Assembly (NCBI GenBank): GCA_977020255.1 | Contig: CDROCS010005135.1 | Coordinates: 1-64,000 of the forward strand | From: Obrimoposthia wandeli | Lineage: Eukaryota | Length of the DNA stretch: 64,000 bases | Direction: 5' to 3' | Part shown: positions 15,457 to 32,069 of the stretch, piece after piece | Numbering within the stretch: position 1 is the stretch's first letter | Layout: the number at the start of each line of letters is the position of its first letter | Position numbers and translations under genes: made by a program | Notes under the pieces: generated by a model | Databases searched by the model: none | Seen by the model: the letters and a program-made list of their open reading frames with translations, nothing else | Told to the model about the DNA's origin: nothing

Positions 15457-16285
15457 AGTTAATGCTGTCACCCATGACAAAGCAGAATTAAAAACAAACA
15501 ACATTCCTCGAATTGATAAACAAGCCGTGGCAGAAGCATTTGGTCGTGCAGCTAAGCATTACGATAAAGCGGCTGCTTTTCAGCGCATGGTTGGTCATCA
15601 GTTGCTTGAGCGTTTACCTGCCGTTATTCCCACAGGTACTCGCGTATTAGATTTAGGGTGCGGCACGGGGTATTTTTCAGAACAATTAATGCAACGTGGT
15701 TATGATGTTTCTGCCGCTGATTTATCGATAGAAATGCTGGCACAGGCAAAGTCTCGTTGTGGCGATAGTGTTACCTATTTAGAAGCTGATGCTGAAAACT
15801 TACCGATTGAAGATAATCAGTTTGATGTTGCGTTCAGCAGCCTTGCCCTGCAGTGGTGTGATGATCTGTCTGTACCATTGAAAGAGTTGCGGCGTGTGGT
15901 GAAGCCTGGTGGAAGAATTATGTTTACCACTTTAGTAGAGGGTTCGTTATTTGAGCTTTCACAGGCATGGCAAGAGGTTGATCGATATCAACATGTGAAT
16001 CATTTTCTTTCGCAAAAGGCGATAAAACTTGCGCTGGCGCAAGCGGGAGGGGCAATCGATACCCTAGACTTCAAACCAATTAGAGTGAATTATCCAGCGG
16101 CAGTTGGACTCATGAAGGACCTAAAAGGGATAGGAGCGACTCATTTACCACAAGGGCGCAAAGCAGGCTTGGCCGGTCGTAAAACGATCATGGCATTAGA
16201 GAGCGCCTACAATGAGTTTCGAGATGAGAATGGTCAACTGCCAGCTACATATCAAGTCTGTTTTGGAGTAATAATAAATGACTAA
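15446..16285 (+). CDS. bioC: Malonyl-ACP O-methyltransferase
   Basis: [22 protein letters not shown] motif, SSLALQW; operon position. Confidence 0.95.
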
Positions 16286-16958
16286 CGCTTTCTTTCTTAC
16301 AGGTACAGATACCGAAGTAGGTAAAACTGTAGCCTCTCGCGCAATTTTACACGCAGCTGGTAGCGCGAATATTAAGATGGCGGGTTATAAGCCTGTGGCA
16401 TCAGATAGCAAACGAACAGATGAAGGCATGCGTAATTCAGACGCATTGTATATTCAAGATGCTTCAGTGGTTGAACTGAACTATCAAGAAGTTAACCCAT
16501 ACGCATTTGAAGCCGCGATTTCTCCCCACCTTGCAGCAGAGCAAGAAGGGCAAGTGATAGATTTTGATGTATTAAGCGCAGGCTTAGAGCATCTTAAAAG
16601 TAAATCAGAAGCCGTACTTATCGAAGGTGCTGGTGGCTGGCGTGTGCCGGTTTCTCATACCGATTTTCTATCAAGTTGGGTAAAGCGTGAAAAGCTGCCT
16701 GTTATCTTGGTTGTGGGTGTAAAGCTGGGTTGTTTAAGCCATGCAATACTGACCGCAGAAGCCATTCAAAATGATGGTTTAGAGTTAGTTGGCTGGGTTG
16801 CTAATCGTATTAATCCAGGCACAGAAAACTACGCTGATATTATTAAAATGCTAGAGCAAAACCTACCGGGTAAAAAAATGGGCGAAATTCCATACATGCC
16901 GGCAATTAAAAAACGCGACTTATCAATGTATATTGATTTGAGTGCGTTAGGTTTATAG
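16278..16958 (+). CDS. bioD: Dethiobiotin synthase
   Basis: [35 protein letters not shown]. Confidence 0.97.
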
Positions 16959-17003
16959 TCTATTTAGTGTGAAAGTAAGCAATGGCTAAATACTAGATAT
17001 TTT

Positions 17004-17022
17004 AAAAGGCACTGAAAAGTGC
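17004..17022 (+). repeat. attL core of the prophage (19-bp direct repeat)
   Basis: AAAAGGCACTGAAAAGTGC, identical to 30480-30498. Confidence 0.85.
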
Positions 17023-17106
17023 TTTGTGTGATAGCTTAAAGCATTGTTTTATATTTAATTTAAAATACAAGTGACCACTAAGCGTCCACATCTGTATGTT
17101 ATATGT

Positions 17107-17131
17107 AAAGCCACTTCTAACCAGTGGCTTT
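17107..17131 (-). terminator. Terminator at the end of the phage late operon
   Basis: AAAGCCACT-tctaacc-AGTGGCTTT immediately after the last phage ORF. Confidence 0.75.
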
Positions 17132-17132
17132 A

Positions 17133-17282
17133 TTATTTCTGCTCTAAACGAGTTAGTCGTGCATCCATTTTTGTGATAATTTCACGCATCCACTTAATAT
17201 CCGTTTTCATGGCAACGCCTGTACCAAACGCAGAGCAAAATCCAGTTGCTGCCGCGACTAGCACCGTTTGATATAACTCCAT
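17133..17282 (-). CDS. 49-aa phage membrane/coiled-coil protein, putative lysis factor (not in ORF track)
   Basis: Manual translation MELYQTVLVAAATGFCSAFGTGVAMKTDIKWMREIITKMDARLTRLEQK*; N-terminal hydrophobic helix; a homologous copy lies at 30699-30810. Confidence 0.7.
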   Translation of the reverse strand: MELYQTVLVAAATGFCSAFGTGVAMKTDIKWMREIITKMDARLTRLEQK

Positions 17283-17291
17283 TCAAATACC

Positions 17292-17492
17292 TTATTTTTT
17301 CTCTTTTCTAAACGTATCCCATAAACCAATCAGCATACCGACAATGGCAGGAACCATACCGCCAACCTGTGCGCCAGTGTCATTAACCGTGACGGTTGCT
17401 AAATCTGTGTTGCCCGTAGCGACACCAATTGCGCCAGCGCCAAGAAGAATCAAACCCGTTTTAGTACTTTTTTGCGATAAATCGAACTTCAT
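17292..17492 (-). CDS. 66-aa phage membrane protein, putative holin/lysis factor
   Basis: Two hydrophobic segments and basic C-terminus RKEKK; downstream of the P5-like gene. Confidence 0.65.
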   Translation of the reverse strand: MKFDLSQKSTKTGLILLGAGAIGVATGNTDLATVTVNDTGAQVGGMVPAIVGMLIGLWDTFRKEKK

Positions 17493-18066: not shown

Positions 18067-18129
18067 GGTATCCGATGGTCATCGATGGCGTTTCATGGTA
18101 AATGGTAAAGACCAATGCAGCCCCTACCG

Positions 18130-18343: not shown

Positions 18344-19121
18344 CAATTAATCTCCGGCATAGAAAATAGTTTTCGAGGGTGGTCAAGGTATCCGGTAGCC
18401 ACAACAGGCAAGGCAATCAGCATTGAACCAGTAATTGAATTGGCAATTGGATGCGGGGATATATATCCTCCAAACCAACCATTTATTTACCAACCAGTTT
18501 AAAAGCGCCATTCCTGTTAACGCACCCATGCTTAAAACCTTTAGACCTGATTTAAGTTCGCCCGATTCAAGCTTAACGAAAGCCGCCATAGTTAAAATCG
18601 ATGCAACTGGAACTGCGGAACCAGAGATAGACGCATACTTGGGGTAAATAGTCCAAGAGGGCAAACTGGAACCAAAATCCCACTGCACACGAAACACATT
18701 GAAATTATTTCTATATGTACTTCCTTTTGAAATATTAAAATCAGGGAAATCTTTTCTAATATCACTTTCTATTTCACCAAGCAGCGTCAATTCATTGGCC
18801 GTTCGCTCTGGAGGGAATTGCGATATATTTTCCACTTGAGACATTGTTACTGCACTGTTAGCAATAATACCGTCAGGAATAGTCTGACCTTCAGCAATGA
18901 TCAGCCCTTGATTTTTGGTCAGAGAAATATTGGGTAACTGGTCTGTTGTTGGGCTGGTAATTGTTTGAAAATCAGCCGCATGTTTAGCAATTAAGCCGCC
19001 ATCCTTTGGTGTCCCATCAAGGCGCATCGTTAGTCTGCATCACACGGATAGCCCCGCCCTTGATGCTGTCCAATAAGTTACGGGCTTCCGTAACCATGTT
19101 GCCTAACACTTCGTAACTCAT
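18343..19121 (-). pseudogene. Putative receptor-binding/fibre-like protein with at least two frameshifts
   Basis: MSYEVLGNMVTEARNLLDSIKGGAIR in one frame, the 18383-19027 ORF in the middle, GWFGGYISPHP..LIALPVVATGYLDHPRKLFSMPEIN* in another frame; TGATG-type coupling at both ends. Confidence 0.55.
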
Positions 19122-19392
19122 AATTCCTGTTGCTCCAATTCATCGGCTACGGCTTCAAGGCGTGGTAGCGTGTTACTTGCCACACTGCTTGCTAAGTCGT
19201 AAACGTCGTTATCTGTTTCAAAAATATGGCGGTGCAGGGTCATCAGCGTTGCACCTATGGCTACCTGATTGCTGTAAACGTCCTGCATCATTTGCAACGC
19301 GTCAACCTGATCAGGTTGTAGGTTTTTAAGGTGCTCGTGCTGGGAGGGGTTCTTACTTCACGGCCTTCTCTCGACGCGGCATGATATGTCAT
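19118..19392 (-). pseudogene. Small virion-associated protein with one frameshift
   Basis: ATG at 19392; later frame PDQVDALQMMQDVYSNQVAIGATLMTLHRHIFE..ELEQQEL* whose stop overlaps the next ATG. Confidence 0.4.
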
Positions 19393-19965
19393 CTGCACTC
19401 CACCAGCGATTTTCAACGGGGTATTGCTGTTGTTGTACGCCCACAACTCACCACCGCCCGTGATTGTCATGCCTGCGGGTGCTGTTCGGTCACCCAGAAC
19501 AGGAAGCCCAACCACTGCCGATACATTCGAATCCCCTAACATTGCCTCAGCTTCAACCTCGCTGATATTTTGGATAATGGCTTCCAGCCGTGTGACTGAC
19601 GCATTAAGCAAACGTTGCTTGGTATTGGGGTTAATAACCAAATGGTCACGGCTAATAAAGCGCCGTTTCCTTCCATGGCATGGAGTACGAATTTCAATAT
19701 CGTCATTGAATCGCAACCACCATGGCAGGTGTGGTAAATCAAATTATGTTTGGTAAACAACGCGAATCGGGGTTGCATGAGGGTTAGATAATTCCAACTC
19801 TTTGAAGTCACCAATTTCTAAGGTGTCGCCCGCATCAATGCGGATACGTTCACCGTTGTCACTGTTAACATTCACATACTCTTGAGCTTCACGAAGAATA
19901 ATCCACTTATAAGAAGCCACACCGAAACGCTTTATTTCTTGAGGTTGTAAAGTAATAATATTCAC
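19288..19965 (-). pseudogene. PM2 P1-like penton/spike protein, interrupted by an in-frame stop at 19744
   Basis: ORFs 19744-19965 and 19288-19716 are in the same frame; beta-rich; RLLNASVTRLEAIIQN resembles P1 ELLPEDASRNRASIKS; located after the P10-like gene. Confidence 0.5.
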
Positions 19966-20646
19966 TTACGCCCCCTTAATCGCAAATGCGACCATACCGA
20001 TACCCATTGCAGCCGCGACCGCCATCGACACCTTTGACATTTCCCCCGCGCTCCCTGTCTGAGAGCGTGAGGCGGTATTTTCTGCCATTGCCAAGGCTGC
20101 ACGTGCATTCCCTCATTCGCTGAAGCGTTGCACGAAGCCAGATACAACGTTTTCAGCATTACGACGGCTTGCATCAATAGCGGATTGGCTAATATCAGCG
20201 TTTTTATCAAGTGCCTTTTCACCAAACCCCAATGCCTTGAATAATGATTCCTGACCACTGTCTAAGGCACTTTTTAAGGTATCCTTATTCGCTTCAATGG
20301 ACTTTTCTGCCAGTGAGTTTTGAGCCTTGATTGACTCTTTGCTGACGTTCTCATTTGACTTAATCGCATCACGACCAAAATCAAAGGATTCACCAGCTCA
20401 TTCGATTTTGGAGGGCGTCCTGACCGGAATGCCTCCTTTATGGCGGCACTGTTACTCGCCATTGCATTTTTGGCAATTTCAGATGCAGCCCTGACTGAGC
20501 CGTGGTCTGTCATATTGACGTTAATGCTTGAATCGTTCGCCCCACTGATAACAACACCTAAATTGTCACCAGAAATGGCACTTGTACCGTTGGTATTGGT
20601 TGCGCCTTTGCATGTTCTTACTTGAACTACTGCCACCGCCACCCAT
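19966..20646 (-). pseudogene. PM2 P10-like membrane/DNA-delivery protein, frameshifted
   Basis: MGGGGSSSSK start, TNTNGTSAISGDNLG, TDHGSV motif, Ala/Ser-rich helical middle and C-terminal TM VSMAVAAAMGIGMVAFAIKGA*, recoverable only with about three frame changes. Confidence 0.65.
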
Positions 20647-21056
20647 CAGCTTCCCTCCAAATACAATGACATTACCGTGTCATGCTCGGTCGTTTCCGTC
20701 TGAACAAAACCAAATGACTGTAGAATCGCAGTCATGCCAGTGCGTACAGTGTGGTACTTGATAGCGCGGTATCCCTGAGACTTCACCGCGTCAATGATAT
20801 AAGGGGCAACGCTCACCAAACCCTTACCCGTCAACGCGAGAATCAGATAATCGTTATCATCGGTAACGAAACCAACGAAACGCACAGACACATCTTTTCC
20901 TATCACTTGGTACATGCTGGCTTGTTTAGAGAGAACAAGCTCTTTCGTGATATCGAACTCTGCTTTACAGTTTTTCACACCGTTAAAAGCACGTTTAATC
21001 AACGCGAATTGAGCTTGAATATCAGCACGAGTGGGTTTTAATAGAATGAATTTCAT
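20646..21056 (-). CDS. Phage protein, possible degenerate GNAT-like fold
   Basis: 136-aa ORF translationally coupled between the P8-like and P10-like genes; GKGL..SQGYRAIKYHT..LQSFGF pattern. Confidence 0.6.
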   Translation of the reverse strand: MKFILLKPTRADIQAQFALIKRAFNGVKNCKAEFDITKELVLSKQASMYQVIGKDVSVRFVGFVTDDNDYLILALTGKGLVSVAPYIIDAVKSQGYRAIKYHTVRTGMTAILQSFGFVQTETTEHDTVMSLYLEGS

Positions 21057-21262
21057 TTTTTAAACACCATCCAAGCCATTGCGATTGCCAACACGATAAA
21101 CGGCATATTTTGAAGAGGACCGCCACCGAAGTTAATCGACCCATTCTTGATACCGCCAATCGAGTTGGTACCCGTTGCCTCCGACGGACCCGCTGCACCA
21201 CCGCCTGCGCTGATAGGCATTGAACCGCCAGCACTTAAACCACCACCGATACCCGGTATCAT
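21053..21262 (-). CDS. PM2 P8-like membrane protein
   Basis: Gly-rich N-terminus, GSINFG motif and C-terminal TM ending in KK, as in PM2 P8 (GGINFG..LVIKRK). Confidence 0.75.
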   Translation of the reverse strand: MIPGIGGGLSAGGSMPISAGGGAAGPSEATGTNSIGGIKNGSINFGGGPLQNMPFIVLAIAMAWMVFKK

Positions 21263-21408
21263 GATTTAGCCCCCCACACGCGATAAGCCGCATAACAACC
21301 GCCACCGATTGCCACCGCTTTCAACAATTGTGTTGTTTTAGAACCAGTAAAAAAACCAGCCCCAAACGACACACCCCCAGTCAATAACAGAATTGGAATT
21401 AATGGCAT
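21259..21408 (-). CDS. 49-aa PM2 P4-like membrane protein (not in ORF track)
   Basis: MPLIPILLLTGGVSFGAGFFTGSKTTQLLKAVAIGGGCYAAYRVWGAKS*; AGGGGG RBS; ATGA overlap with the P8-like gene. Confidence 0.65.
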   Translation of the reverse strand: MPLIPILLLTGGVSFGAGFFTGSKTTQLLKAVAIGGGCYAAYRVWGAKS

Positions 21409-21416
21409 AACGCCCC

Positions 21417-21695
21417 CTAGCTCTTGACCGCTAATACAACCACAAGCAGTAGCACCACCGCCCCGATACCTCCACCGACATAGAGCAAGGTTTTATCGTC
21501 TGTACGAGGAATGTAATTCCCCGTCACTGCATTGCCGTTGTTGTCTTTCACTGGCGTTGTCGGTTGCTGTGTTGTTCCTGCGTTCGCGCTGTTGTCAGGT
21601 TTTTTGGTCTTACCCTCAACAAGGTTATCGAATCCCTCACCAACGCTATCTAACATGCCAGAACCGAAATTACTCAGGTCATCAAAAAAGCTCAT
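21417..21695 (-). CDS. PM2 P3-like membrane protein
   Basis: 92 aa, amphipathic N-terminus, low-complexity linker, C-terminal TM (KTLLYVGGGIGAVVLLLVVVLAV); directly after the MCP gene. Confidence 0.75.
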   Translation of the reverse strand: MSFFDDLSNFGSGMLDSVGEGFDNLVEGKTKKPDNSANAGTTQQPTTPVKDNNGNAVTGNYIPRTDDKTLLYVGGGIGAVVLLLVVVLAVKS

Positions 21696-21703
21696 AAGCC
21701 CCC

Positions 21704-22507
21704 CTAAACAAGATCAGGACGAACAATCAAAACTGACTCAACAATGATAGAAATTGAGCCGCAAGGTTCAGACGTTTTCACCGTGAACTTAAGCTCTGAG
21801 TTGTGCACCGTACGGAAAAGCTCATCGATGTAATAACCGCGCATGATTGGGTCAAAGTGGTAGCAGTTTGCTTGCCAGAAACGACGATTACGCTTTGCGC
21901 GCATATCTTCTAATGCACGTGTTGAATCATGGACTTTGACAAAGTCACGGTGAATTTGCAGTGAGTGCACTTTGTCACTGAGAAAGTGCATACGGCGCAC
22001 CATGTGAAGCGGACCAGAAATCAAGTCAAGAAACTCGTTCTCTGTTGAACTTGCTTGCATGGTCTGGCGTTTGATTTGCGGAACAACCACACGAGCACCT
22101 TGACCTGCTGATACGGTTGCCCATGCCTGTAGTTTGATGGCGGGTGCATTCTCTTGGCTGGTTTCTGCGACTTCAATTTCTAGCGTGATGTTGTCACCGC
22201 TTTCCGTTACCAGACCAGTGTAAGCCATGCCGTTTTTGGTTTTTGCGGTGATATCCATTAATGGAATTGCGAAAAATCCGTCCGTTTGGGTCAGACCTTT
22301 GTAGGCTTCCAGCTTTTTGATTAGCTCACCGTCTAGAACAATGATTTCATCAGCATTCAGCGTGATAGAAACGCGTTTTAATTGGGCTGCACTGAGGTTT
22401 GTTTCGAGAAAAATTTCGTCATACGTTGGGCCAATCGGAATGGTTAACGTCGCTTTTTCACCGTAGCCAGTACCCGTAAATGAATTCAGCTTAGTTGGAG
22501 CAGTCAT
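21704..22507 (-). CDS. Double-jelly-roll major capsid protein (PM2 P2-like)
   Basis: 267 aa, beta-rich; KLNSFTGTGYGEKATLTIPIGPTYDEI aligns by eye with PM2 P2 LNSIPNVAAGNSCSIKLPIGQTYEVI; conserved gene position. Confidence 0.8.
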   Translation of the reverse strand: MTAPTKLNSFTGTGYGEKATLTIPIGPTYDEIFLETNLSAAQLKRVSITLNADEIIVLDGELIKKLEAYKGLTQTDGFFAIPLMDITAKTKNGMAYTGLVTESGDNITLEIEVAETSQENAPAIKLQAWATVSAGQGARVVVPQIKRQTMQASSTENEFLDLISGPLHMVRRMHFLSDKVHSLQIHRDFVKVHDSTRALEDMRAKRNRRFWQANCYHFDPIMRGYYIDELFRTVHNSELKFTVKTSEPCGSISIIVESVLIVRPDLV

Positions 22508-22521
22508 AGTGATTTACTCCC

Positions 22522-22635
22522 TTAACCGATTTGGTCTTCAACGGCATCAACGTTATTTGATGCCCAGACAACGCCAGCTGCGACAAGCAGTGCAATCACC
22601 GCTGTGACTGCATACCCTTTAGTTTTTGCATTCAT
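22522..22635 (-). CDS. 37-aa PM2 P7-like membrane protein (not in ORF track)
   Basis: MNAKTKGYAVTAVIALLVAAGVVWASNNVDAVEDQIG*; single TM immediately upstream of the MCP gene. Confidence 0.65.
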   Translation of the reverse strand: MNAKTKGYAVTAVIALLVAAGVVWASNNVDAVEDQIG

Positions 22636-22781
22636 GTTTATTAGCTCTCTGTATAAACGTGTTTAAGAGCCAATAGGAAAACAGGTGATTTGGTTTTAAG
22701 GCAAACGAAATAAAGCAAGGAAGGCTATAGGTTAAATAACGAGGTAGGGGGGCTTTATTTCATCTCTTTTTTCTAACGTGC

Positions 22782-22812
22782 AAAATACACCTATCACTGA
22801 TAGGTGTATTTT
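22782..22812. terminator. Perfect inverted repeat, terminator of the cargo gene
   Basis: AAAATACACCTATCA-c-TGATAGGTGTATTTT, 19 nt after the cargo stop. Confidence 0.75.
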
Positions 22813-22831
22813 CATTATGGGAAATGTAAAG

Positions 22832-24250
22832 TTAAATATGAACAGCTTCGATGATAATAATATTATCATCATTTGATAAATTAAATTTACTCATAGAGCT
22901 TCTAACTTCATCTGCTTTCTTTAAGCTATAGCAAATTATAATAACAACTTGATGATTCACATCACCTTGGCTACGTTTGAATAAATAGCTATCAAGGTGA
23001 GGGTTACTTGCCATTTTAGTTTCAAATGAATTATTTAGTTTGAAGTTGTTCTTCAAGCAATTATTCGCTTTGAGTAATATGCTAAACAGCATTTTTATTT
23101 CTTTTGCATTGGTGATTCTTTTGTCTTTAATGAATAGTGGAGCTGAACTCTTGTTTAATATATCTTTCAAAATAATTGATTTTTCACGAAGATTAGATAA
23201 GCTCTTTACTTTCAAATTAAAAAAATCAGTACCTTGCAACTTAACAATCAATTCACTACCATTATTTAGGAATAGTGATTTAGCATTAAACATTCTCTTT
23301 TTAGTTAATTTTGAAGCTTCTTTTTCACCATCACTTTCAGTTTTATACTTTATGTAATAGTCTAAATATGATGGGTATTTTTTGATTAAATCATTCATAA
23401 CCATTCGATGGTAATCAGTTCTCTTTCCCGTAGAAAGGAGCATGCTTCTATCATAGAAATCAAAAACATTTTTAGCAAAGTTACTATCAGATATATGACT
23501 CAAAACTTTTTTGAATTGAGCGTGACTTTTAATTACATCATTTTTACATATCCAAGTATTATCTTTTGTTAAAAGTTCTATTGGACTTAAAATGACATAT
23601 TCGCCGTCATGAATAGGCATGTGGTATTTTTTATCAACCCAAACCTTATTGTCATAATCAAAAAGTGCTCGTTTAACCAATACATCTTTGCAAAATTTAT
23701 TATCAATAAAAGTCTTTGCGAAGTATTCCGTGTATGAAAGAAGGTAATCTTTTATTATATTGGTTGTGAAGTCACTAATTTTATCTTTGCCTATTTTATC
23801 TTGGCATAAGCAAAACTTTTCTATATGGACAGTATTTGAATTTTCATTACTACCAAATTTTTTAAATATATTGTTAATGCTGAAGTTTAACTTGTTCGCA
23901 AAATCACTAGCTAAACCACTCCCGTTATTACCATCAACACTAAAGCCTAGCCAGTTTTCTTTTACTTCGTGAAACATGAACCATTCATTTAAGTTTTCTT
24001 CACTAATATCATCACTCGCATTATCTTGAAGAAATATCAAGTATTTAACAATATCATCATGCAGGTGTTGATAGTTTTTATTTTTATAAATTAAAAAGGG
24101 ATCTATAAACAAAGGAATATCATTTATTAATGAAATATCAAAAGCACCATATTCATCAATAATTTCCCTTGAAACGTCAAAAAAGTCAGAGAAATAAATA
24201 CTTGGTTTATCCAGTATCACAGGAACATCTAAATCAACACATTCACTCAT
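22832..24250 (-). CDS. AT-rich prophage cargo (moron) protein, 472 aa; candidate anti-phage nuclease-fold protein
   Basis: Much lower GC than flanking phage genes; motifs YFSDFF, GAFDISLINDIPLFIDPFL, IGKDKISDFTTNIIK and C-terminal FETKMASN. Confidence 0.75.
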   Translation of the reverse strand: MSECVDLDVPVILDKPSIYFSDFFDVSREIIDEYGAFDISLINDIPLFIDPFLIYKNKNYQHLHDDIVKYLIFLQDNASDDISEENLNEWFMFHEVKENWLGFSVDGNNGSGLASDFANKLNFSINNIFKKFGSNENSNTVHIEKFCLCQDKIGKDKISDFTTNIIKDYLLSYTEYFAKTFIDNKFCKDVLVKRALFDYDNKVWVDKKYHMPIHDGEYVILSPIELLTKDNTWICKNDVIKSHAQFKKVLSHISDSNFAKNVFDFYDRSMLLSTGKRTDYHRMVMNDLIKKYPSYLDYYIKYKTESDGEKEASKLTKKRMFNAKSLFLNNGSELIVKLQGTDFFNLKVKSLSNLREKSIILKDILNKSSAPLFIKDKRITNAKEIKMLFSILLKANNCLKNNFKLNNSFETKMASNPHLDSYLFKRSQGDVNHQVVIIICYSLKKADEVRSSMSKFNLSNDDNIIIIEAVHI

Positions 24251-24345
24251 GTAAAACCTCAGAAAAACATATAGACCTGCTAAATCTATATGAATTTACG
24301 TGCAAATCCAACAGATGGAATAGTGTGTTGATGCATTTCGTGTGG

Positions 24346-24375
24346 ATTATAATAAATCAGAGAGTTAGTTCACAA
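24346..24375 (-). promoter_or_regulatory. Putative sigma70 promoter of the cargo gene
   Basis: Minus strand TTGTGA-N18-TATAAT, about 95 nt upstream of the ATG. Confidence 0.5.
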
Positions 24376-24393
24376 AATCAGCACTTTCCATTA

Positions 24394-25059
24394 TTACCAT
24401 CGAATAATATCTTTCTTCCACGCCTTACCATCCTGAAGAATGTATTCAAGCTTTATCAACGGGATAACCTCACTAGCAGGTATTCCTGTCTTCCTTTGGA
24501 TGTAATGCGCACTATCATCAGCTTTTTGCATCATCACACACGCATATTGGCAGTTATCAATGATCGTCTTTGAGACTTCCTGACCACGCTGAAACATATT
24601 GATGGTGTGAATGTTGTATTTCCGTCCTAGCCTTAACAGCTTGCCATGGTAGCCTGTTGCTTTGCCTGTGGTGTGACTGTGCTCGGCAACTTCTTCACAA
24701 ATTACCTTTAAGGGTTTGGCATGTTTACCATCACCGACACCCCATGCAATTGAGCAGAAACGGTCAAAGTCTTCTTCTGTGGTTTCCCGTTTCGGGTAAT
24801 ACGCAATTTTAAATCCTTGCTTGGTTTTACGCCCCGCAAGAATGGCGATAGCAAAATCACGAAGGTTGGAATAGCTGCGAACGACACGCCCCGCGAGTTT
24901 GCCTTGGTAATCGTTAAGAGGGTCAAAAATCACCACTTGGTCGGTTGCCTTAACAAACAGCTTTTTGGCTGCGGAGGTTTTCCCGCAGCCAGACATGCCA
25001 ACCGCATACGCATGATGATTATCTAGCGTATTGTTTTGGTTAACAGGTTGGAGTTTCAA
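24394..25059 (-). CDS. Genome packaging ATPase (PM2 P9/A32-like, FtsK-HerA superfamily)
   Basis: Walker A GMSGCGKT, Walker B VICEE, GRKYNI arginine-finger motif, FQRGQEVSKTIIDN; 221 aa, no TM. Confidence 0.85.
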   Translation of the reverse strand: MKLQPVNQNNTLDNHHAYAVGMSGCGKTSAAKKLFVKATDQVVIFDPLNDYQGKLAGRVVRSYSNLRDFAIAILAGRKTKQGFKIAYYPKRETTEEDFDRFCSIAWGVGDGKHAKPLKVICEEVAEHSHTTGKATGYHGKLLRLGRKYNIHTINMFQRGQEVSKTIIDNCQYACVMMQKADDSAHYIQRKTGIPASEVIPLIKLEYILQDGKAWKKDIIRW

Positions 25060-25529
25060 GCCGCCTCCTTGTCATTATTATCGTCATTCGCTGCCGTCTT
25101 CGATTTTATGTCTTCTAGCTTTAATTTCCTGACTTGCATCATGCTACTGAACCCTAATAAACCAATCGCAAACAATGCCATGATTTCGTCCATATACGGT
25201 TCTAACCACGGTGGCGGTTTACCGCCGTATTTCACGATCAAAGGCGCAACCTTATAGGCTACGTTTTCGGCTTGGTCGACATCAAATTTAAAGTCTTTGT
25301 GTACTGCCATTTTAAGTGTTGATTCAGTTGCCATTAACCCCATGAACACGATGCCAGCAGCGGCTTCAATCGACATGGCTTCTGGCTCATCTTTCGGTTT
25401 AACGTCGGTTTGAGTGGGATCAAAATCAACATCATCATTAAAACTATTGGCAAAGCGTTTTTCATCATCTTCTGAATGATATTCAATTTGCTCGGTTTCG
25501 TCTGGCTTGATTGGCTCTTTGATTTCCAT
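25056..25529 (-). CDS. Phage protein with acidic N-terminus and hydrophobic helices, coupled to the ATPase
   Basis: 157-aa ORF, KYGGKPPPWLEPYMDEI, ATGA overlap with the ATPase gene. Confidence 0.7.
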   Translation of the reverse strand: MEIKEPIKPDETEQIEYHSEDDEKRFANSFNDDVDFDPTQTDVKPKDEPEAMSIEAAAGIVFMGLMATESTLKMAVHKDFKFDVDQAENVAYKVAPLIVKYGGKPPPWLEPYMDEIMALFAIGLLGFSSMMQVRKLKLEDIKSKTAANDDNNDKEAA

Positions 25530-25553
25530 GCTGTTTCCTATAGGTTTGTTGGG

Positions 25554-26045
25554 TTAGTTGAACTTAACGATTGCACCGCCAGTAAGCCCGCCAAGGACAA
25601 TGCCGCAAAGCACAGCACCCCAACCAATACGCTTTTGTTGCGGTTCTTTTTCGGTTTGATTATCGGTTTTGGTTCGGTCACTGGTTTGCTCTGCAATGCA
25701 GGTGGTTGCTGGCTTGTCTGGTTCAATGATTGGGTTTTTATTGCCTCCGCTTTCACTGCTTGTTTCTGCTGATGCTGGCGGTGTTTCTTTAATGATGCTG
25801 GATTCTTCGGGTTGCGTTTGCTCACTGGTGATTAACTCCGCTTTGGTTACATGGAATTGATTGAATACACGTTGAACTGGCTCGCCAGTACGTTGGTCGG
25901 TGCCACAGGTATCGCAAATCGAATACAGGAATCTTGCCCGTTTACCCCGCGAACGGTGCAAGGTTCGAACATCACCACATTCGCAGCGTTGACCGCCTGC
26001 GGTCGGATTGGTTGAGGCGCGTGTTGGCCATCCGTTGTTATCCAT
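25554..26045 (-). CDS. Zn-ribbon protein with C-terminal TM (possibly PM2 P14-like regulator)
   Basis: CECG..CDTCG N-terminus, disordered linker, TM IGWGAVLCGIVLGGLTGGAIV. Confidence 0.65.
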   Translation of the reverse strand: MDNNGWPTRASTNPTAGGQRCECGDVRTLHRSRGKRARFLYSICDTCGTDQRTGEPVQRVFNQFHVTKAELITSEQTQPEESSIIKETPPASAETSSESGGNKNPIIEPDKPATTCIAEQTSDRTKTDNQTEKEPQQKRIGWGAVLCGIVLGGLTGGAIVKFN

Positions 26046-26220
26046 TCTGTTTTCCTTCCAATGTATTTAAGCGTTTATTAGTAATGTTGATGTAGCGAAT
26101 TAATGCCTGAATCAATGGCTTAAATGTTTTACCCATCAATGAATTACTAAATGATTCACCCGCATCACTGATAGTTTGTGTATTTTCTTCTGCTGCTTTT
26201 TGTAACGCTTCTACTGACAC
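26038..26220 (-). CDS. Small phage coiled-coil protein
   Basis: 60-aa ORF with AAGG RBS, overlapping the next gene. Confidence 0.55.
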   Translation of the reverse strand: MSVEALQKAAEENTQTISDAGESFSNSLMGKTFKPLIQALIRYINITNKRLNTLEGKQNG

Positions 26221-26232
26221 TATTTTTTTACC

Positions 26233-28092
26233 TTATATTCGGATTGATTGGATAAAGGACTTACTACTGTGCCCCTTGGGCGGGTGAAGGTGGTTGTAAG
26301 GCTTACTGGGCTCTAACTGCGTACAGTTATTGACACAAGTCCAAGGTAGAGCAGGAGACGAATCAAGAGCCAAAGAATCAACATCAAGAGCTTTAGGCGC
26401 ATCAGCTTTCACTAAACGCCATTCATGCTCATGTGTGAACACAGTGATGCCCGCACCATGCAGCCCGATTATTTTCTCAATGGTTTCGCCGTATCGGTTT
26501 TCGTCTAATTCTTTGTAAGGTTTGATAGGTCGCTGGCTCTGCTTAACGCGGTGACCGCCCATGTAATCGAAATAGGCTGAAAAGAAACCCCAATCAGCCG
26601 CACGACGGGCTTTTTCAAACAAGCCATACTCTTGCTCATCTTGAATTCTGCGCAGCTCTCGCCATACCGTGACACTCGGTACTTTTTGAAATTGGAATTG
26701 ACGGAAACTGAATGTGCGCGACCATGCCGTAACGTTATTGACAACCTCGGTTAACTTGACGGTTTTTGCGTCTAAGTCGCTTGCATCACCAAGACCAAAG
26801 CCGTCGATATTCTTAGAAATGTATTTGGCGATATACGCAACTGCATCACCTTTTGATGGGTCGATTAATTTGATATCAATACGGGCTTTCATTGCCTTAG
26901 TTTTTGGCATGCCGTCAGGAAAATATAATTCCCCAGAATCACGCTGCATTTGGTAATAACGCAGTAGGGCTGTGAACTTCCCAAATTGCTCCAATGGCAT
27001 GAAAAACACTGCATGCCAGTGGGGTGTGCCATCAACATGCGGCTCAACAACACGCATCCCGTAATAATCTAAACCACGACGACCCGCAGCACTTCTGAAA
27101 CGCTCCCACGACAAAGAAAGCCATTGATGCGCAGCTTTTGCGCCTGTTTGGTTCCAGTTAGGGTTTTCTATCCAAAAATTGCCGCGCTTTTTCAAACGAT
27201 GGTATTTACCTGGCGAGGTCATGGTGACGAATACGGCAACATGTGTTTGCTCGTCGGCATATTCCTGACACCCAGACATGCGGGTCATCAATTCATTTCG
27301 ACGGTTTACAGGGTTAGCCACTGACGCGTCATGCACGTCTTTCATGCTGAATTGTTCACCCAATTCATTCTCGACCACCATCATTTCAAGCCATGCGCTT
27401 TGTTGTTTCTGTCTATCTTTGAGCCATTGGCACGCAGAATAAGACGCATACGGGCTGGTATGTGAAGACACCATGCCAGCCGCACGACGGGCATTTTCAA
27501 AAGCTGCGGTAACTTGGCGGGTAATGGATCGCTTCCAGACTGCCGCATCAATGGCACGACCAATAATGCCGAAATACACATCATCGTCTTTGCCTTCTCT
27601 GGGTAGCATTTGAGGCATCCATAACCCTAAGCCTACAAACTCATTTATTAACCTAACGGCTTCTAATGGGGTCATGCCTTTATCACATGCAATTTGAAAG
27701 TGCATATGTGCGCGCCCTGCTAGTTCATCAGCAAGACGGGCACACTTGAACTCTGTATTCACTCGATAAAACGGTTCTGGTAAAACAGCCAATGCCGCAT
27801 GGGCTGCCTTAGAGCGAGATTCGATAAATGACAAGGCTCTATCGAGCCCGTACTTACGCAATCTCATGGCGGCTGAATGGTCTAGATATCGCTTAATATC
27901 GGACGGTAACGATAATTGCAAACACGCCTCGGTACTAAAGGCGAGCACCTTGCCTAACATGCTGTCAGGGGTGTTACACCACGGATTCACATCACTGAAT
28001 TGTTGTGATTCCTTTTCGGCAAACTCGCCTAAAGCTTCGTAGGTTTTAGGCGCATGTTTGCGAAGGTAGGCGAGGGGGTTTTTAATGCTCAT
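26233..28092 (-). CDS. Rolling-circle replication endonuclease (P2 gpA-like HUH Rep)
   Basis: FVTMTSPGKYH, YYGMRVVEPHVDGTPHWH (HUH), YIAKYISKNIDG (two catalytic Tyr), RQFQF, PSVTVWRELRR, PWTCVNNCT. Confidence 0.92.
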   Translation of the reverse strand: MSIKNPLAYLRKHAPKTYEALGEFAEKESQQFSDVNPWCNTPDSMLGKVLAFSTEACLQLSLPSDIKRYLDHSAAMRLRKYGLDRALSFIESRSKAAHAALAVLPEPFYRVNTEFKCARLADELAGRAHMHFQIACDKGMTPLEAVRLINEFVGLGLWMPQMLPREGKDDDVYFGIIGRAIDAAVWKRSITRQVTAAFENARRAAGMVSSHTSPYASYSACQWLKDRQKQQSAWLEMMVVENELGEQFSMKDVHDASVANPVNRRNELMTRMSGCQEYADEQTHVAVFVTMTSPGKYHRLKKRGNFWIENPNWNQTGAKAAHQWLSLSWERFRSAAGRRGLDYYGMRVVEPHVDGTPHWHAVFFMPLEQFGKFTALLRYYQMQRDSGELYFPDGMPKTKAMKARIDIKLIDPSKGDAVAYIAKYISKNIDGFGLGDASDLDAKTVKLTEVVNNVTAWSRTFSFRQFQFQKVPSVTVWRELRRIQDEQEYGLFEKARRAADWGFFSAYFDYMGGHRVKQSQRPIKPYKELDENRYGETIEKIIGLHGAGITVFTHEHEWRLVKADAPKALDVDSLALDSSPALPWTCVNNCTQLEPSKPYNHLHPPKGHSSKSFIQSIRI

Positions 28093-28268
28093 TGCGCAGA
28101 CCTTGATTGCAGTTGGTTCGCTCTTACTCTAATGCGCTCTGACATTTGAATCTTTTTGCGGTCTTGCTTGGTTTTAATTCGCTGTAACTCACAGCGAATT
28201 TTACGAATGTTATTCAGCCCTGAAAGGCACTGTTTTTTGGTAGGAAATTCAAAATCTTTGGTATTCAT
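28089..28268 (-). CDS. Small basic phage protein
   Basis: MNTKDFEFPTKK.. after GGGCGC RBS-like sequence; ATGA-type overlap with rep. Confidence 0.55.
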   Translation of the reverse strand: MNTKDFEFPTKKQCLSGLNNIRKIRCELQRIKTKQDRKKIQMSERIRVRANQLQSRSAQ

Positions 28269-28278
28269 AGTGCGCCCC

Positions 28279-28530
28279 TTAGATTGATGATTTCCAATTA
28301 GTATTTTCTTTCGCTTGCTCGTCTGCATACTTTTCAAGCGCCAACATATTGATAAATACCCGTCCACGACGAAGTCCAACACGTTGCATTACAGGTAATT
28401 TCCCGTTTTTTACCTGCCCCTTAACTGCATCCAAACTTAACCCTACTAAGTCTGCGAACTTCTCTATCGTCACAAATGGCGCATAATTACCTTTTATGAC
28501 TCCTTCCGACTCTTTATAATGTTCTATCAT
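28279..28530 (-). CDS. Cox/Apl-like regulator and excisionase
   Basis: APFVTIEKFADLVGLSLDAVKGQVKNGKLPV..GRVFINMLAL winged-HTH pattern; divergent from the repressor. Confidence 0.75.
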   Translation of the reverse strand: MIEHYKESEGVIKGNYAPFVTIEKFADLVGLSLDAVKGQVKNGKLPVMQRVGLRRGRVFINMLALEKYADEQAKENTNWKSSI

Positions 28531-28637
28531 TTAAATTATCCTTAAATACCCACTATTGACACTACGTCAACCTAAGTGGTCAGTAAGGCGAATTTACTCC
28601 CTTTTATTACCTACTGTCAACCTTAAAGGTCATCATT

Positions 28638-29381
28638 ATGAAGGAATGGTTTTTAACATCAGAGTTGTTAGATCATGAGGGAATGCCAAACTCTCGTCAG
28701 GCGATTGCAAAAAAAGCAAAAAGAAACAATTGGTTAAAGCGAAAGGCTCAAGGGGAGGGGCGCTCTCTTGAGTACCATATTTCCAATCTCCATGAAGATA
28801 TTCAAAAGTCGCTAATTGTGAAGTACGGCGAAGATTTCGAAATAAAGAACATACCTAGTGTCATCGCCCAGCTAAAAGAAAATGCAGTCAAATATGAAGA
28901 CGATGAGAAACCGTTAAGTAACGTATCAAAAGAAATACCACTGGACGAAATAAGCGATTGGTGCATCTTACCTGTTTATGATGTTCACGCGGCAGCAGGA
29001 GCAGGAACATTGATTCAATCTGAATACCAAATAGGTACATTTCAAATACCATGTGTATTACTGCATGAATACGGATTGAACGCAGAAAATAGCTCTATCA
29101 TTTTTGTGGATGGTGATTCTATGGAGCCAACATTGAGCCACAAAGACAAACTGCTTGTTGATATTCAAGAGTATTATCATCCTGTAACTAACGGTGTTTA
29201 TGTCATTCGAATTGATGATGCAGTTTATGTAAAGCGTTTACACTGGGATATTGAAAACGGTCTTTACAACATTATTTCTGATAACTCGAAATACGCACCT
29301 TTCAAAATTGACCACAACAATGGGCGCAATTTTAAGATTATCGGGAAAGTTATCACCATCATAATGAAGCCAGTGTTATGA
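28638..29381 (+). CDS. Prophage repressor: Mu-type HTH fused to an S24 (LexA/CI) peptidase domain
   Basis: N-terminus EWFLTSEL..EGMPNSRQAI..W.KRK..GEG..EYHISNL; Ala-Gly cleavage site (AAAGAG), VDGDSMEPTL (Ser), VYVKRL (Lys). Confidence 0.85.
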   Translation: MKEWFLTSELLDHEGMPNSRQAIAKKAKRNNWLKRKAQGEGRSLEYHISNLHEDIQKSLIVKYGEDFEIKNIPSVIAQLKENAVKYEDDEKPLSNVSKEIPLDEISDWCILPVYDVHAAAGAGTLIQSEYQIGTFQIPCVLLHEYGLNAENSSIIFVDGDSMEPTLSHKDKLLVDIQEYYHPVTNGVYVIRIDDAVYVKRLHWDIENGLYNIISDNSKYAPFKIDHNNGRNFKIIGKVITIIMKPVL

Positions 29382-30367
29382 GTATTAAAAAAGAAGATAC
29401 CAAGTGGCTAGTTGATATTCGCCCGTCAGGAAGAGACGGTAAGCGATATAGGCGAAAATTTGAAAGAAAAGCAGAAGCTCTAGCGTATGAAAAACATATT
29501 CTAGCCACTGCACACAGTAAAGAGTGGCTAGGGCTTCCAGCAGACACGCGCCGATTATCAGAACTCATTGAGATATGGTGGAAAAAATCAGGGCAATTCA
29601 AACGCACCGCTGATAATTACCAGAAAAAAGTAAGCCTTATTTGTCGCGAACTGGAAGACCCTCCAGTCAATACAGTAAATCACAAATTACTGTCTAATTG
29701 GGTGCTTTATAGATTAGAGAAAGGTCAGAAACCGTCGACTATTCGACGGCTTATAAAATCATTAAGTAATATTTTTACAGTAACAATTGATTCAGGGGAC
29801 TACATAGGTGAAAACCCACTAACAGGGCTTAAACTCCCCACCGTAAAACAACCTGATATGACATATCTTAATGACAGCCAAATAGACCAACTTCTTGAAG
29901 CCGTTGCAGAACATGACGAACTCAATAAGGTAGTTGAAATTTGCCTGTCTACTGGCTCACGATGGCGAGAAACGATCACATTACGAACAAGCAATCTTTC
30001 GCCTTATAAAATCCGCTTTACCAATACAAAAACAGATAAGCCTCGAACAGTGCCTATTAGCCAAGAGCTCTATGAAAAAATTTACCCAAAAAGTGGGGCA
30101 AGTGTATTTTCTTATGACCCTCAACAAGATCTATACGACATTCTGAATAAACTAGACTTTGGTTTACCCAAAGGACAAAAAGCACATGTACTAAGGCACA
30201 CATTTGCTAGTCACTTTGTTATGGGAGGAGGGGATATTTTAACGTTACGTGACATTCTAGGACATGGCGATATCAAACAAACAATGACCTATGCTCACCT
30301 TGCACCAGACCACCTAACAGACGCCGTGAAATTTAATCCACTATCAAAAAAAAGGCAGTCACAATGA
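29378..30367 (+). CDS. int: Tyrosine integrase, P2/HP1 family
   Basis: WLVDIRPSGRDGKRYRRKF arm-binding domain; TGSR, HVLRH, LGH, TMTYAH catalytic residues. Confidence 0.95.
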   Translation: MSIKKEDTKWLVDIRPSGRDGKRYRRKFERKAEALAYEKHILATAHSKEWLGLPADTRRLSELIEIWWKKSGQFKRTADNYQKKVSLICRELEDPPVNTVNHKLLSNWVLYRLEKGQKPSTIRRLIKSLSNIFTVTIDSGDYIGENPLTGLKLPTVKQPDMTYLNDSQIDQLLEAVAEHDELNKVVEICLSTGSRWRETITLRTSNLSPYKIRFTNTKTDKPRTVPISQELYEKIYPKSGASVFSYDPQQDLYDILNKLDFGLPKGQKAHVLRHTFASHFVMGGGDILTLRDILGHGDIKQTMTYAHLAPDHLTDAVKFNPLSKKRQSQ

Positions 30368-30479
30368 CCACCTTTTGTCCGCGTTTATTACCTTTCATCA
30401 CTATAAGTCACCTATGAGGTAAAGTTAAAGTCATGAAAATTAAAGATTTAACCTTTCGTTACTATTTATCACATATAAA

Positions 30480-30498
30480 AAAAGGCACTGAAAAGTGC
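30480..30498 (+). repeat. attR core, within an intact bioD-side terminator hairpin
   Basis: AAAAGGCACTGAAAAGTGC followed by CTTTTTT completes AAAAAAGGCACT-gaaa-AGTGCCTTTTTT. Confidence 0.85.
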
Positions 30499-30554
30499 CT
30501 TTTTTGATCTTTTTCTACTCTATATAGCATCCCGTTCGCAGTTATTCCCACCTT

Positions 30555-30928
30555 CGTGATAACGGTCAGTATGCGTATGTGATGATGCAAAAACCCGATG
30601 ACAGAACACATTTCATTCAGCGTAAAACGGGGATTCCAGAAAGTGAGATCATCACCGTTGGTAACGTTTGAATACTTGTTTAAAAAATAGGGGCTTGAAT
30701 GGCGTTATATCAAATGGTTTTAGGTGCAGGCATGAAAGCAGGCATTAAGTGGATGCGTGAAATGATTACAAAAATGGATGTTCGACTCACTCGCTTAGAG
30801 AAAAAAATAAAGCCACTGGCTAGCAGTGGCTTTACTCATAATTACTCGGTGTAGACACTTCATCTATGTTTTAAACGCCATATAAAACATAATTTTGCGT
30901 TGTTACACAAAGCATTGAAAATGCTTTT
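30555..30928 (+). pseudogene. Inverted relic of a second PM2-like element: ATPase 3' fragment, terminal small gene, terminator and att-like end
   Basis: DNGQYAYVMMQKPDDRTHFIQRKTGIPESEII vs ATPase DNCQYACVMMQKADDSAHYIQRKTGIPASEVI; KWMREMITKMDVRLTRLEK vs KWMREIITKMDARLTRLEQ; AAAGCCACTGG.TAG.AGTGGCTTTAC terminator. Confidence 0.85.
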
Positions 30929-30943
30929 TACAACTCAATCATC

Positions 30944-31108
30944 TTAGCTGTTATCGCCTGTTAATCCGATAAGAGCTTCTTGGGTATTTGTCAGCTTAGG
31001 TTTACCTGATGCATCAAGTCCCAATTCCTTATGGGCTTCATCAACTGACATACCAAGATGACAGCAAAGAATATCAATCGCAACTTGGTATTTCTCTTTG
31101 TCGGCCAT
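30944..31108 (-). CDS. Small hypothetical protein (~54 aa)
   Basis: MADKEKYQVAIDILCCHLGMS.. after GGAGG RBS. Confidence 0.6.
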   Translation of the reverse strand: MADKEKYQVAIDILCCHLGMSVDEAHKELGLDASGKPKLTNTQEALIGLTGDNS

Positions 31109-31220
31109 CATTCCTCCTTGATATAAAGACTGGTGTTTAAAACACCTGACATCAACAATAGTCAATATGCGCACTAGATGCAATAAGACTAAAGTCTAAG
31201 ATTTAGTCTTATCTCCATTT

Positions 31221-32069
31221 CTAGCGAATGAGTAAGAGTGGCACTTGGCTTTTGGTTAGCATTTCAGTGGTATTACTGCCTAAGAAAAACTGCCTAACGC
31301 GTGAATGCCCGTAAGCCCCCATTACAATAAGACCAATATCATTGTGTGTTTGATAGTGCACCAGTGCAGAGTGGATATCGCCCTCAATGATTTTTTCTAA
31401 AACATCGATATTTTCAGCACGTAATTTCTTAGCTGCAACATGGAAAGATTCAGTACGATCATCGTCGTCTTTCACCATCACTAAGTGGCAGGTTAATCCA
31501 TTTAATAACGGGGTTTTTATCGCTTTATCGATGAGTTTTTGACTGATATCACTGCCATCAAATGCAATCATGAATGACTTTGGTTCGTTAAACGGTTTTA
31601 TCGCGACTAAGGTATGTGCCTTTATAGAGCGAATAACACTTTCAAGCTGGGAACCAATCGCGGTGGTTTGATTTTGATGCGCTTCACCTGATTTTCCAAT
31701 AACCAGCAAGCGAGTTTCAGTTTCAATATCAAGCAGAGATTCAACAAAGTCACCGTGTCTTTGTTGTTTAATGACGTTAGCCAAACCTTGTTGATTCGCT
31801 CTTTCCATCATATCGGCAAGCAAATACTTCCCATGCTTAAGAGCTAATTTACTGCGTTGCTCATCTAACGCGGTTAAATCTTCAAGAAGCTGCTCTCGGC
31901 TGCCTAATCCAATACTACCTGATAACTCACTTGTTACAGGGTATTCCGATTTATCTAATACATGCAGTATTTTTAAAGGAATGTCTAAGTGCTTGGCTGC
32001 CCAAATGCTAGCATCACACACAGTTGTCGACATGGATGAACCATCAATACACGCGATAATATTTTTCAT
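31221..32069 (-). CDS. Universal stress protein (tandem UspA domains)
   Basis: IIACIDGS, LLVIGKSG, IAFDGS, IVMGAYGHSRVRQFFLGSNT. Confidence 0.92.
   Translation of the reverse strand: MKNIIACIDGSSMSTTVCDASIWAAKHLDIPLKILHVLDKSEYPVTSELSGSIGLGSREQLLEDLTALDEQRSKLALKHGKYLLADMMERANQQGLANVIKQQRHGDFVESLLDIETETRLLVIGKSGEAHQNQTTAIGSQLESVIRSIKAHTLVAIKPFNEPKSFMIAFDGSDISQKLIDKAIKTPLLNGLTCHLVMVKDDDDRTESFHVAAKKLRAENIDVLEKIIEGDIHSALVHYQTHNDIGLIVMGAYGHSRVRQFFLGSNTTEMLTKSQVPLLLIR

What the first reader, a model, noticed from the sequence alone, without database searches (positions are those of the whole stretch)
30500..30928. Inverted ~430-bp fossil of a second PM2-like element just outside attR
Seen: on the + strand (opposite to the resident prophage genes) there is a diverged ATPase C-terminal fragment (30558-~30680) joined almost directly to a deleted copy of the terminal 49-aa gene (30699-30810). 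Its terminator (30809-30833) and an arm ending ACACAAAGCATTGAAAATGCTTT follow, mirroring the resident left end (ATATAAAACA..ACACAAAGCA). About 7 kb of intervening genes are missing. Inference: an earlier relative occupied the same locus in the opposite orientation and collapsed by deletion, so the site has been invaded repeatedly.
Basis: seen in the sequence. Interest (0 to 1): 0.7.

Follow-up and report, generated by a model that had tools for sequence, protein, structure and literature searches.

The report
Inverted phage fossil at reused terminator
Next to a tailless PM2-like prophage in a deep-sea-type Photobacterium lies a 430-base scrap of a related phage facing the other way, likely the deleted remains of an older invader of the same palindromic gene terminator, and intact relatives at another terminator also sit in both directions.

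Summary
The same relic, with other deletions, stands alone at this site in genomes G001 and G039 and runs X3, X5, X7; G002, G003, L086 and L087 are empty. All relics share the first junction (att|int), so one old insertion shrank by nested, microhomology-bounded deletions and now decays like neutral DNA. The site was then invaded again. Related PM2-like prophages use terminator hairpins as att cores, and at lysC-metH a 92%-identical prophage is inverted between G010 and G018/G044. Orientation likely follows the polarity of the hairpin loop. The fossil is ordinary; two-way use of terminator att sites by this family was not found in my eight paper searches.

The parts
16278..16958 (+). host bioD (left flank; end of bioBFCD)
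   Evidence: Pfam AAA_26/CbiA after Radical SAM-BATS, aminotransferase and methyltransferase genes; 94-96% to P. frigidiphilum, P. indicum, P. profundum
17004..17029 (.). attL of the resident prophage: AAAAGGCACT-GAAA-AGTGC plus phage half TTTGTGT
   Evidence: 19-mer identical to 30480-30498; equals the terminator in the empty sites
17030..17492 (-). resident's terminal arm, terminator (17106-17132), 49-aa gene (17133-17282) and 66-aa gene (17292-17492): the intact counterparts of the relic's right part
21704..22507 (-). [quoted passage not shown]
   Evidence: Pfam P2_N E 2.7e-43, P2_C E 2e-33
24394..25059 (-). resident packaging ATPase, counterpart of the two ATPase scraps
   Evidence: PHROG 2666 E 5e-39; 70% to tailless Vibrio cyclitrophicus prophages
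29378..30367 (+). resident P2-type tyrosine integrase (with CI 28638-29381 and Cox 28279-28530)
   Evidence: Pfam Phage_integrase, Int_N; 44.6% to P2 and Wphi Int
30478..30505 (.). perfect hairpin AAAAAAGGCACT-GAAA-AGTGCCTTTTTT: attR of the resident and left att of the relic
   Evidence: -16.2 kcal/mol, z -4.7; same hairpin precedes the relic in G001 and G039
30505..30532 (-). relic: reversed integrase scrap (reads LYRVEKDQK against resident LYRLEKGQK)
   Evidence: aligns to 29727-29700; G039 keeps 86 nt, 80%, E 2e-16
30533..30560 (+). relic: ATPase scrap 1
   Evidence: 93% to 24883-24856; GTTCGC microhomology with int at the junction
30557..30680 (+). relic: ATPase scrap 2 (C-terminal part, 1-nt insertion near 30654)
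   Evidence: 76% to 24559-24436; 79-87% to ATPases of six other PM2-like elements
30678..30698 (+). relic: end of the 66-aa gene and ribosome-binding stretch of the 49-aa gene
   Evidence: alignment to 17300-17283; ATAC microhomology at the ATPase junction
30699..30807 (+). relic: 49-aa gene pseudogene (39-nt in-frame deletion in the hydrophobic part, stop lost, frame runs on to 30854)
30805..30837 (-). relic: phage terminator hairpin, with its stronger U-tail on the minus strand, facing the host 55-aa gene
   Evidence: -18.7 kcal/mol, z -5.2; terminator scan
30838..30908 (+). relic: terminal arm of the phage
   Evidence: aligned to 17097-17025
30905..30929 (.). relic: worn right att, now the hairpin AAAGCATT-GAA-AATGCTTT
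30944..31111 (-). host 55-aa gene (right flank, convergent on bioD)
   Evidence: 96-98% in L005-L007, about 100 bases after bioD in empty sites

Best explanation
The 430 bases are the inverted, deletion-riddled remains of a PM2-like prophage closely related to the resident one, which likely entered the palindromic terminator between bioD and a 55-aa gene before several Photobacterium lineages split. Shown: homology of five scraps in inverted prophage order (int, ATPase, 66-aa, 49-aa, arm); hairpin copies at both ends; the relic alone in other genomes; empty sites in others; shared and nested junctions; intact relatives in both orientations at another terminator. Inferred: (1) because the stem is a palindrome, only the short loop sets direction, and the old phage's attP loop was polarised opposite to the resident's (TTTC against GAAA read from the int arm), so it went in backwards by ordinary overlap-matched recombination; (2) the first deletion removed the int-side arm and about the last two thirds of int, locking it in; (3) lineages then shrank it separately at short microhomologies, with the hairpin-bearing edges lost last; (4) since the int-side half-core is the reverse complement of the host half, the left junction stayed a perfect attB, and a later sister phage integrated there in the other direction, pushing the relic outside its attR. 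The relic is predicted to be immobile and to make no working protein.
For: Homology and shuffles. Relic alone: G001 (323 bases more than the empty site), G039, runs X3, X5, X7; empty: G002, G003, L086, L087. G039 int piece 80%, E 2e-16. All share att|int; window, G039, X5 and X7 share int|ATPase; window and G039 share ATPase|66-aa; G001 keeps 66-aa bases that these lost; X5 keeps a late-promoter piece (22622-22553) and has lost the 49-aa ORF. Microhomologies GTTCGC, ATAC, T-run. Three relic hosts share a right flank about 15 nt shorter than the empty ones and are split from the four empty hosts in trees of both flanks (SH-aLRT/UFB 97/70 left, 96/90 right, 88/76 joined). 49-aa codons: resident against G001 10 synonymous/4 replacement, but window against G001 0/6 and against G039 2/6. 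Relic divergence 0.04-0.12 against flank dS 0.10-0.18. Family: 15 of 16 elements with both ends examined have a hairpin core with the same loop at both ends (14, G310), loop polarity from the int arm varies (GAAA in window and G375, TTTC in G336); G010 against G018: same flanks, 11.3 kb 92% identical but inverted, G044 like G018. X1 contigs break exactly at the att cores, with relic depth 15.8, left flank 16.3, prophage 5-7.
Against: No intact prophage in the relic's orientation was found at bioD (2 of 65 metagenome matches were this locus, both empty; 0 of 82 viral loci with PM2-like genes; 1 locus, not at bioD). The right att differs by about three changes from the expected hybrid, so its original loop cannot be read with certainty. 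The host trees are not rooted reliably and G001-G039 relic divergence (0.04) is well under their flank dS (0.10-0.12), which hints at recombination or constraint. The ATPase scrap is closer to other elements (up to 87%) than to the resident (76%), so the ancestor was a mosaic sister, not the resident's own line. Both-orientation use rests on two sites and one genome (G010) for the minority orientation at lysC-metH. Contig depth is no share of cells.
Confidence: 0.85

Rival explanations
1. Same fossil, other route: the old phage had the resident's polarity and was inverted by recombination between mismatched loops, either on entry or later between its own attL and attR.
For: G018 has opposite loops at its two ends (AAT at the int side, ATT at the far end), the pattern expected after a mismatched exchange resolved by replication; IntDOT shows that a symmetric overlap gives both orientations (PMC2817482, passages).
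Against: Only 1 of 16 elements shows unequal loops, and there one base differs, which a point mutation also explains. At bioD four loop bases would mismatch. Both relic atts carry the host's GAAA-like polarity.
Confidence: 0.25
2. The relic is kept because its phage hairpin now terminates the host 55-aa gene and insulates it from bioBFCD (co-opted terminator).
For: The hairpin is strongest on the host gene's strand (-18.7 kcal/mol, long U-tail). Stem columns 0 of 20 variable against 29 of 205 elsewhere (Fisher p = 0.055). The X5 deletion ends at 30801, at the start of its A-run. The right att has become a perfect hairpin.
Against: p is not significant on three sequences. The left att hairpin already works both ways (-14.3 on the minus strand). 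Empty hosts do without it. Edges of any insert are deleted last.
Confidence: 0.2
3. A purpose-kept cassette: antisense RNA against PM2-like phages, a small immunity peptide, or a satellite mobilised by the resident integrase.
For: The 49-aa start and frame survive in the window, G001 and G039; the window's deletion is in frame; read-through from the 55-aa gene would be antisense to phage genes.
Against: Content differs in every lineage; X5 lacks the 49-aa ORF and G001 the ATPase; changes are mostly replacements; the stop is lost in all three; the int-side arm is gone and the right att worn; promoter-like sites 4 against 2.9 by chance; no Rfam family at threshold (one match at E 0.043 on the att hairpin).
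Confidence: 0.05
4. Assembly chimera, or a recent inverted duplication of the resident's own DNA.
For: The window has apparent indel errors inside the resident prophage.
Against: X1 contig identical over the relic; relic only 74-84% like the resident; present without the resident in G001, G039 and X7.
Confidence: 0.01

Closest known systems
PM2-like (corticoviral, Vinavirales) prophages of aquatic bacteria (PMC1950889, passages read)
   Same: Double-jelly-roll capsid, packaging ATPase, late-promoter spacer, extra ORF between them as noted there for P. profundum, P2-like integrase in some members.
   Different: The passages read name no att sequence and no orientation switch; the relic has lost capsid, replication and nearly all other genes.
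Tailless temperate phages of marine Vibrio (PMC11630473, passages read; NO16, PMC9966536)
   Same: ATPase 70% and 49-aa protein 36-54% identical to those prophages; few hotspots, fast turnover, co-occupied sites, restored site function.
   Different: Their sites are dusA and dif; main text has 0 hits for orientation, inverted, terminator, remnant. Here the att cores are intrinsic-terminator hairpins and orientation varies. Supplements were not read.
P2-type Int/CI/Cox lysogeny module (P2, Wphi)
   Same: Int 44.6% identical, Cox and CI beside it.
   Different: Joined to a tailless virion module; targets differ from element to element (bioD, lysC-metH, icd, rsd and other terminators; gene names are my reading of the translations).
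Prophage integration hotspots and decayed prophages in enterobacteria (PMC3603311, passages read; rapid deletion of defective prophages recalled from Bobay 2014, not held)
   Same: High turnover at few, often intergenic, long-lived sites; shrinkage by deletion.
   Different: Reduced to 430 bases, with a four-variant nested deletion series and an opposite-facing successor at the same core.
IntDOT of CTnDOT (PMC2817482, passages read)
   Same: A symmetric overlap yields integration in both orientations; overlap sets direction.
   Different: Engineered site in vitro and a mismatch-tolerant transposon enzyme; here natural phage sites, and 15 of 16 elements look overlap-matched.

Membership tests
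PM2-like prophage (resident) | [quoted passage not shown] | tested here: met
   Pfam P2_N and P2_C on 21704-22507
PM2-like prophage (resident) | packaging ATPase (P9) upstream of the capsid gene, late-promoter spacer between | tested here: met
   24394-25059 matches 47 Vibrio and Pseudoalteromonas phage records; 22519-22733 is 88-96% conserved among relatives; layout as in PMC1950889
PM2-like prophage (resident) | lipid-containing tailless virion, inducible | not testable with these tools
   X1 contig breaks at the att cores suggest chromosomes without it, no more
PM2-like prophage (relic as former member) | capsid gene present | tested here: not met
   absent from all variants; so the relic is a remnant, not a member in working order
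PM2-like prophage (relic as former member) | pieces homologous to family genes in family order | tested here: met
   int, ATPase, (late promoter in X5), 66-aa, 49-aa, arm, in inverted order
Decayed prophage remnant | insert at a site that is empty in relatives, att copies at both ends | tested here: met
   empty in G002, G003, L086, L087; left att intact, right att worn
Decayed prophage remnant | relaxed selection after entry | tested here: met
   replacement-rich changes among relics, synonymous-rich against the resident; few codons
Decayed prophage remnant | vertical inheritance from one insertion | tested here: inconclusive
   shared junctions and flank split support it; trees modestly supported and unrooted
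Phage satellite or mobile mini-element | intact att arms at both ends, constant gene content, other copies | tested here: not met
   int-side arm deleted, content variable, one copy in G000
Overlap-matched tyrosine integrase system | identical overlap at attL and attR | tested here: met
   15 of 16 elements; G018 is the exception
Overlap-matched tyrosine integrase system | cleavage positions and mismatch tolerance | not testable with these tools
   needs a recombination assay

The most novel reading that the evidence does not exclude
A clade of tailless PM2-like phages carries an integrase that reads any strong terminator hairpin as its att core and tolerates a mismatched loop, so prophages enter or flip in either direction, re-polarise host terminator loops as they come and go, and hop between terminators; the bioD relic is a fossil of that flip, and its surviving hairpin now serves the host.
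Probability: 0.3. Interest if true: 0.62.

Novelty: new variant of a known kind. Interest (0 to 1): 0.4.

Why it matters
Prophage remnants and reused hotspots are well known, so the scrap alone is ordinary. Two points lift it. First, phage tyrosine integrases are taken to give one orientation per site; here sister phages with 80% identical int DNA face opposite ways at one core, and intact relatives do so at a second site, which makes the loop-polarity rule and mismatch tolerance directly testable and points to an integrase family that can be aimed at terminators. Second, four deletion variants of one insertion across species-level lineages give a rare step-by-step record of a 13-kb prophage shrinking to 300-600 bases while the site stays open to the next invader.

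Tried and rejected
Chimera and recent self-duplication: rejected. Small RNA: Rfam on 16800-31300 gave one weak match, E 0.043, 31.8 bits against a cut-off of 55. Intact phage in the relic's orientation at bioD: not found in viral contigs, metagenome contigs, phage records or 67 Photobacterium genomes. The 9-kb bioD-to-55-aa gaps in L012, L020, L030 have no PM2-like genes. Core matches in G023 and G066 are not at bioD and have no PM2-like genes; G046's was not examined. Rooted host trees were unresolved. In one search, 4 of 17 elements (G365, G221, G144, G233) gave no convincing second end and were left out of the loop count; G282 uses a tRNA end and was left out too; G044's far end lies on another contig and is cited apart; G185 and G286 were not counted; the automatic hairpin pick failed for G310, which was read; G383 has no PM2 structural genes by my queries. 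7 of the 22 listed runs were laid (X1, X2, X3, X5, X7, X12; X3 and X5 twice, six distinct runs); X2 and X12 gave only short pieces; no RNA run was laid, so expression is untested. Earlier findings of this scan: nothing on this locus. Two papers were not held. No fold or complex was predicted: not needed.

Full report
Setting. The window is a Photobacterium contig of the P. profundum group: BioD is 94-96% identical to P. frigidiphilum, P. indicum and P. profundum. It lies in a 1.35-Gb assembly. Between bioD (16278-16958) and a convergent 55-aa host gene (30944-31111) sits a 13,476-base prophage with a PM2-type capsid protein (Pfam P2_N, P2_C), a packaging ATPase, a rolling-circle Rep, Cox, CI and a P2-type integrase. 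Its ends are a 19-base repeat, AAAAGGCACTGAAAAGTGC, at 17004 and 30480. In P. indicum (L006) and P. profundum (L007) the same sequence is a single hairpin in a 100-base gap between the two host genes: the att core is the two-way terminator.

Observation. The relic is real. Four blocks of 30533-30933 match the resident on the opposite strand (E 2.5e-30, 6e-19, 7e-6, 8e-5); local score 133 against at most 30 in 100 shuffles. A Logan contig of run X1 (6,669 nt) covers 30480-31600 without a difference; X1 may be the source sample. A search of G000 found no second relic.

The relic elsewhere. At the bioD site G001 (L005) has 323 extra bases: att, int stub, end of the 66-aa gene, a near-intact 49-aa gene (92% to the resident's), hairpin, arm, worn att. 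G039 has a longer form with 86 nt of int (80%, E 2e-16) and three ATPase pieces. Run X3 shows the window's own deletions; runs X5 and X7 show a fourth form, which in X5 joins ATPase 24523 to the late-promoter spacer 22622-22553 and then to the hairpin at 30801, without the 49-aa ORF (for X7 the 159 unplaced letters are inferred to be the same piece). G002, G003, L086 and L087 are empty; L086 and L087 were the only 2 of 65 metagenome matches that are this locus. The core pattern occurs in 7 of 67 Photobacterium genomes, 4 of them at bioD.

One insertion, nested deletions. Every form has the same att|int junction, which removes the int-side arm and about the last two thirds of int. Window, G039, X5 and X7 share int|ATPase; window and G039 share ATPase|66-aa; G001 keeps bases that this junction removed. 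Junctions fall on short shared words (T-run, GTTCGC, ATAC; 9 bases at the X5 joint). The three relic hosts have a right flank about 15 bases shorter than the empty hosts, and trees of the flanking genes separate them from the four empty hosts (SH-aLRT/UFB 97/70, 96/90, joined 88/76), though rooting failed. Relic divergence is 0.04-0.12 per site against flank dS of 0.10-0.18. In the 49-aa gene, differences from the resident are mostly synonymous (10/4 and 9/4 codons), those among relics mostly replacements (0/6, 2/6, 2/2): an active phage gene that later decayed. The 49-aa and int pieces are closest to the resident (90% against at most 81%; int 80% against no hit in six other integrases), the ATPase piece closer to others: a mosaic sister lineage, not a copy of the resident.

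Why backwards. Integrase relatives were sought in 301 family, 67 Photobacterium and 285 other-genus genomes. Of 16 elements with both ends examined, 15 have a hairpin core with the same loop at both ends; those left out are listed under Tried and rejected. Loop polarity read from the int arm varies (GAAA in the window and G375, TTTC in G336). At the lysC-metH terminator, G010 and G018 have the same flanks (93-94%) but an 11.3-kb, 92%-identical PM2-like prophage in opposite orientations; G044 matches G018. Loops, read lysC to metH, are ATT/ATT in G010, AAT/AAT in G044 and ATT/AAT in G018; empty sites in 11 other genomes carry ATT, AAT, AGT, ACT or CAT. So G010 and G044 have the same polarity from the int arm and face opposite ways because their host loops differ; G018 is either a mismatched exchange or a point change. 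By established knowledge most tyrosine recombinases need overlap identity, and a symmetric overlap gives both orientations with IntDOT (PMC2817482, passages). I infer that the relic's ancestor had the TTTC polarity. The int-side half-core is the reverse complement of the host half, so the relic's left junction remained a perfect attB, into which the resident later went. X1's contigs break at both cores, with prophage depth 5-7 against 16 for flanks and relic, which suggests relic-only chromosomes in that sample; contig depth is no share of cells.

Function today. Likely none beyond leaving terminators in place. The phage hairpin at 30805-30837 is strongest on the host gene's strand and its stem is invariant (0 of 20 columns against 29 of 205; p = 0.055), a hint of co-option only. 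No RNA family or promoter excess was found; expression was not tested.

Against what is known. PM2-like prophages in Photobacterium and Vibrio, some with P2-like integrases, are described (PMC1950889, passages); tailless Vibrio prophages turn over fast at dusA and dif (PMC11630473, passages; supplements not read; PMC9966536, passages); hotspots are long-lived and often intergenic (PMC3603311, passages). Eight full-text searches (listings only, apart from the five papers named here) returned no report of terminator-hairpin att cores or of both orientations for this family; the library lacks most subscription papers, so this is not proof of novelty. Earlier notes of this scan held nothing on the locus.

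Verdict. Observation confirmed, interpretation supported and extended. The fossil is an ordinary kind of object; the opposite orientation is a real, family-wide variant worth a simple assay. Interest 0.4.

Noticed in passing
window 18971-19662: The X1 contig differs from the window by 17 letters and 26 gaps here, so the split ORFs at 19288-19965 and nearby (one PHROG family, 33284, in two pieces) are probably assembly errors, not real breaks.
   Followed up: no
window 22519-22733: Non-coding stretch 88-96% identical among PM2-like prophages whose capsid proteins are only 27-28% identical to the resident's; it lies where PMC1950889 places the PM2 late promoter.
   Followed up: partly
window 22832-24250: 472-aa gene in a low-GC stretch (about 35%) between the late promoter and the ATPase, no Pfam match, PHROG 30194/27295 of unknown function; looks like an accessory or defence slot.
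   Followed up: no
G001:C2 16366-16482, 17973-18074, 25300-25386; G002:C6 99536-99625, 110615-111106, 113965-114081: More scraps of the same ATPase and late-promoter spacer near other PM2-like and filamentous-phage-like genes: a second graveyard site.
   Followed up: partly
G000:C1028 128-4123 (L061): Another collapsed PM2-like element in the same assembly: ATPase in two frames, late promoter, capsid start joined to the end of the 66-aa gene.
   Followed up: partly
L183 (G010), L184 (G018), L182 and L303 (G044): Intact PM2-like prophage in opposite orientations at the lysC-metH terminator; G018 has opposite loops at its two ends.
   Followed up: yes
L317 (G375): A related prophage (Int 74%) uses a near-twin core, GGCACC-GAAA-GGTGCC, at a different host terminator, suggesting target hopping between similar hairpins.
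   Followed up: partly
window 30350-30376: Terminator-like hairpin on the minus strand overlapping the end of int.
   Followed up: no
window 54178-54248 and 54368-54438: 71-base direct repeat, 92% identical, 190 bases apart.
   Followed up: no
window 22782-22812: Near-perfect 31-base palindrome between the late promoter and the 472-aa gene.
   Followed up: no
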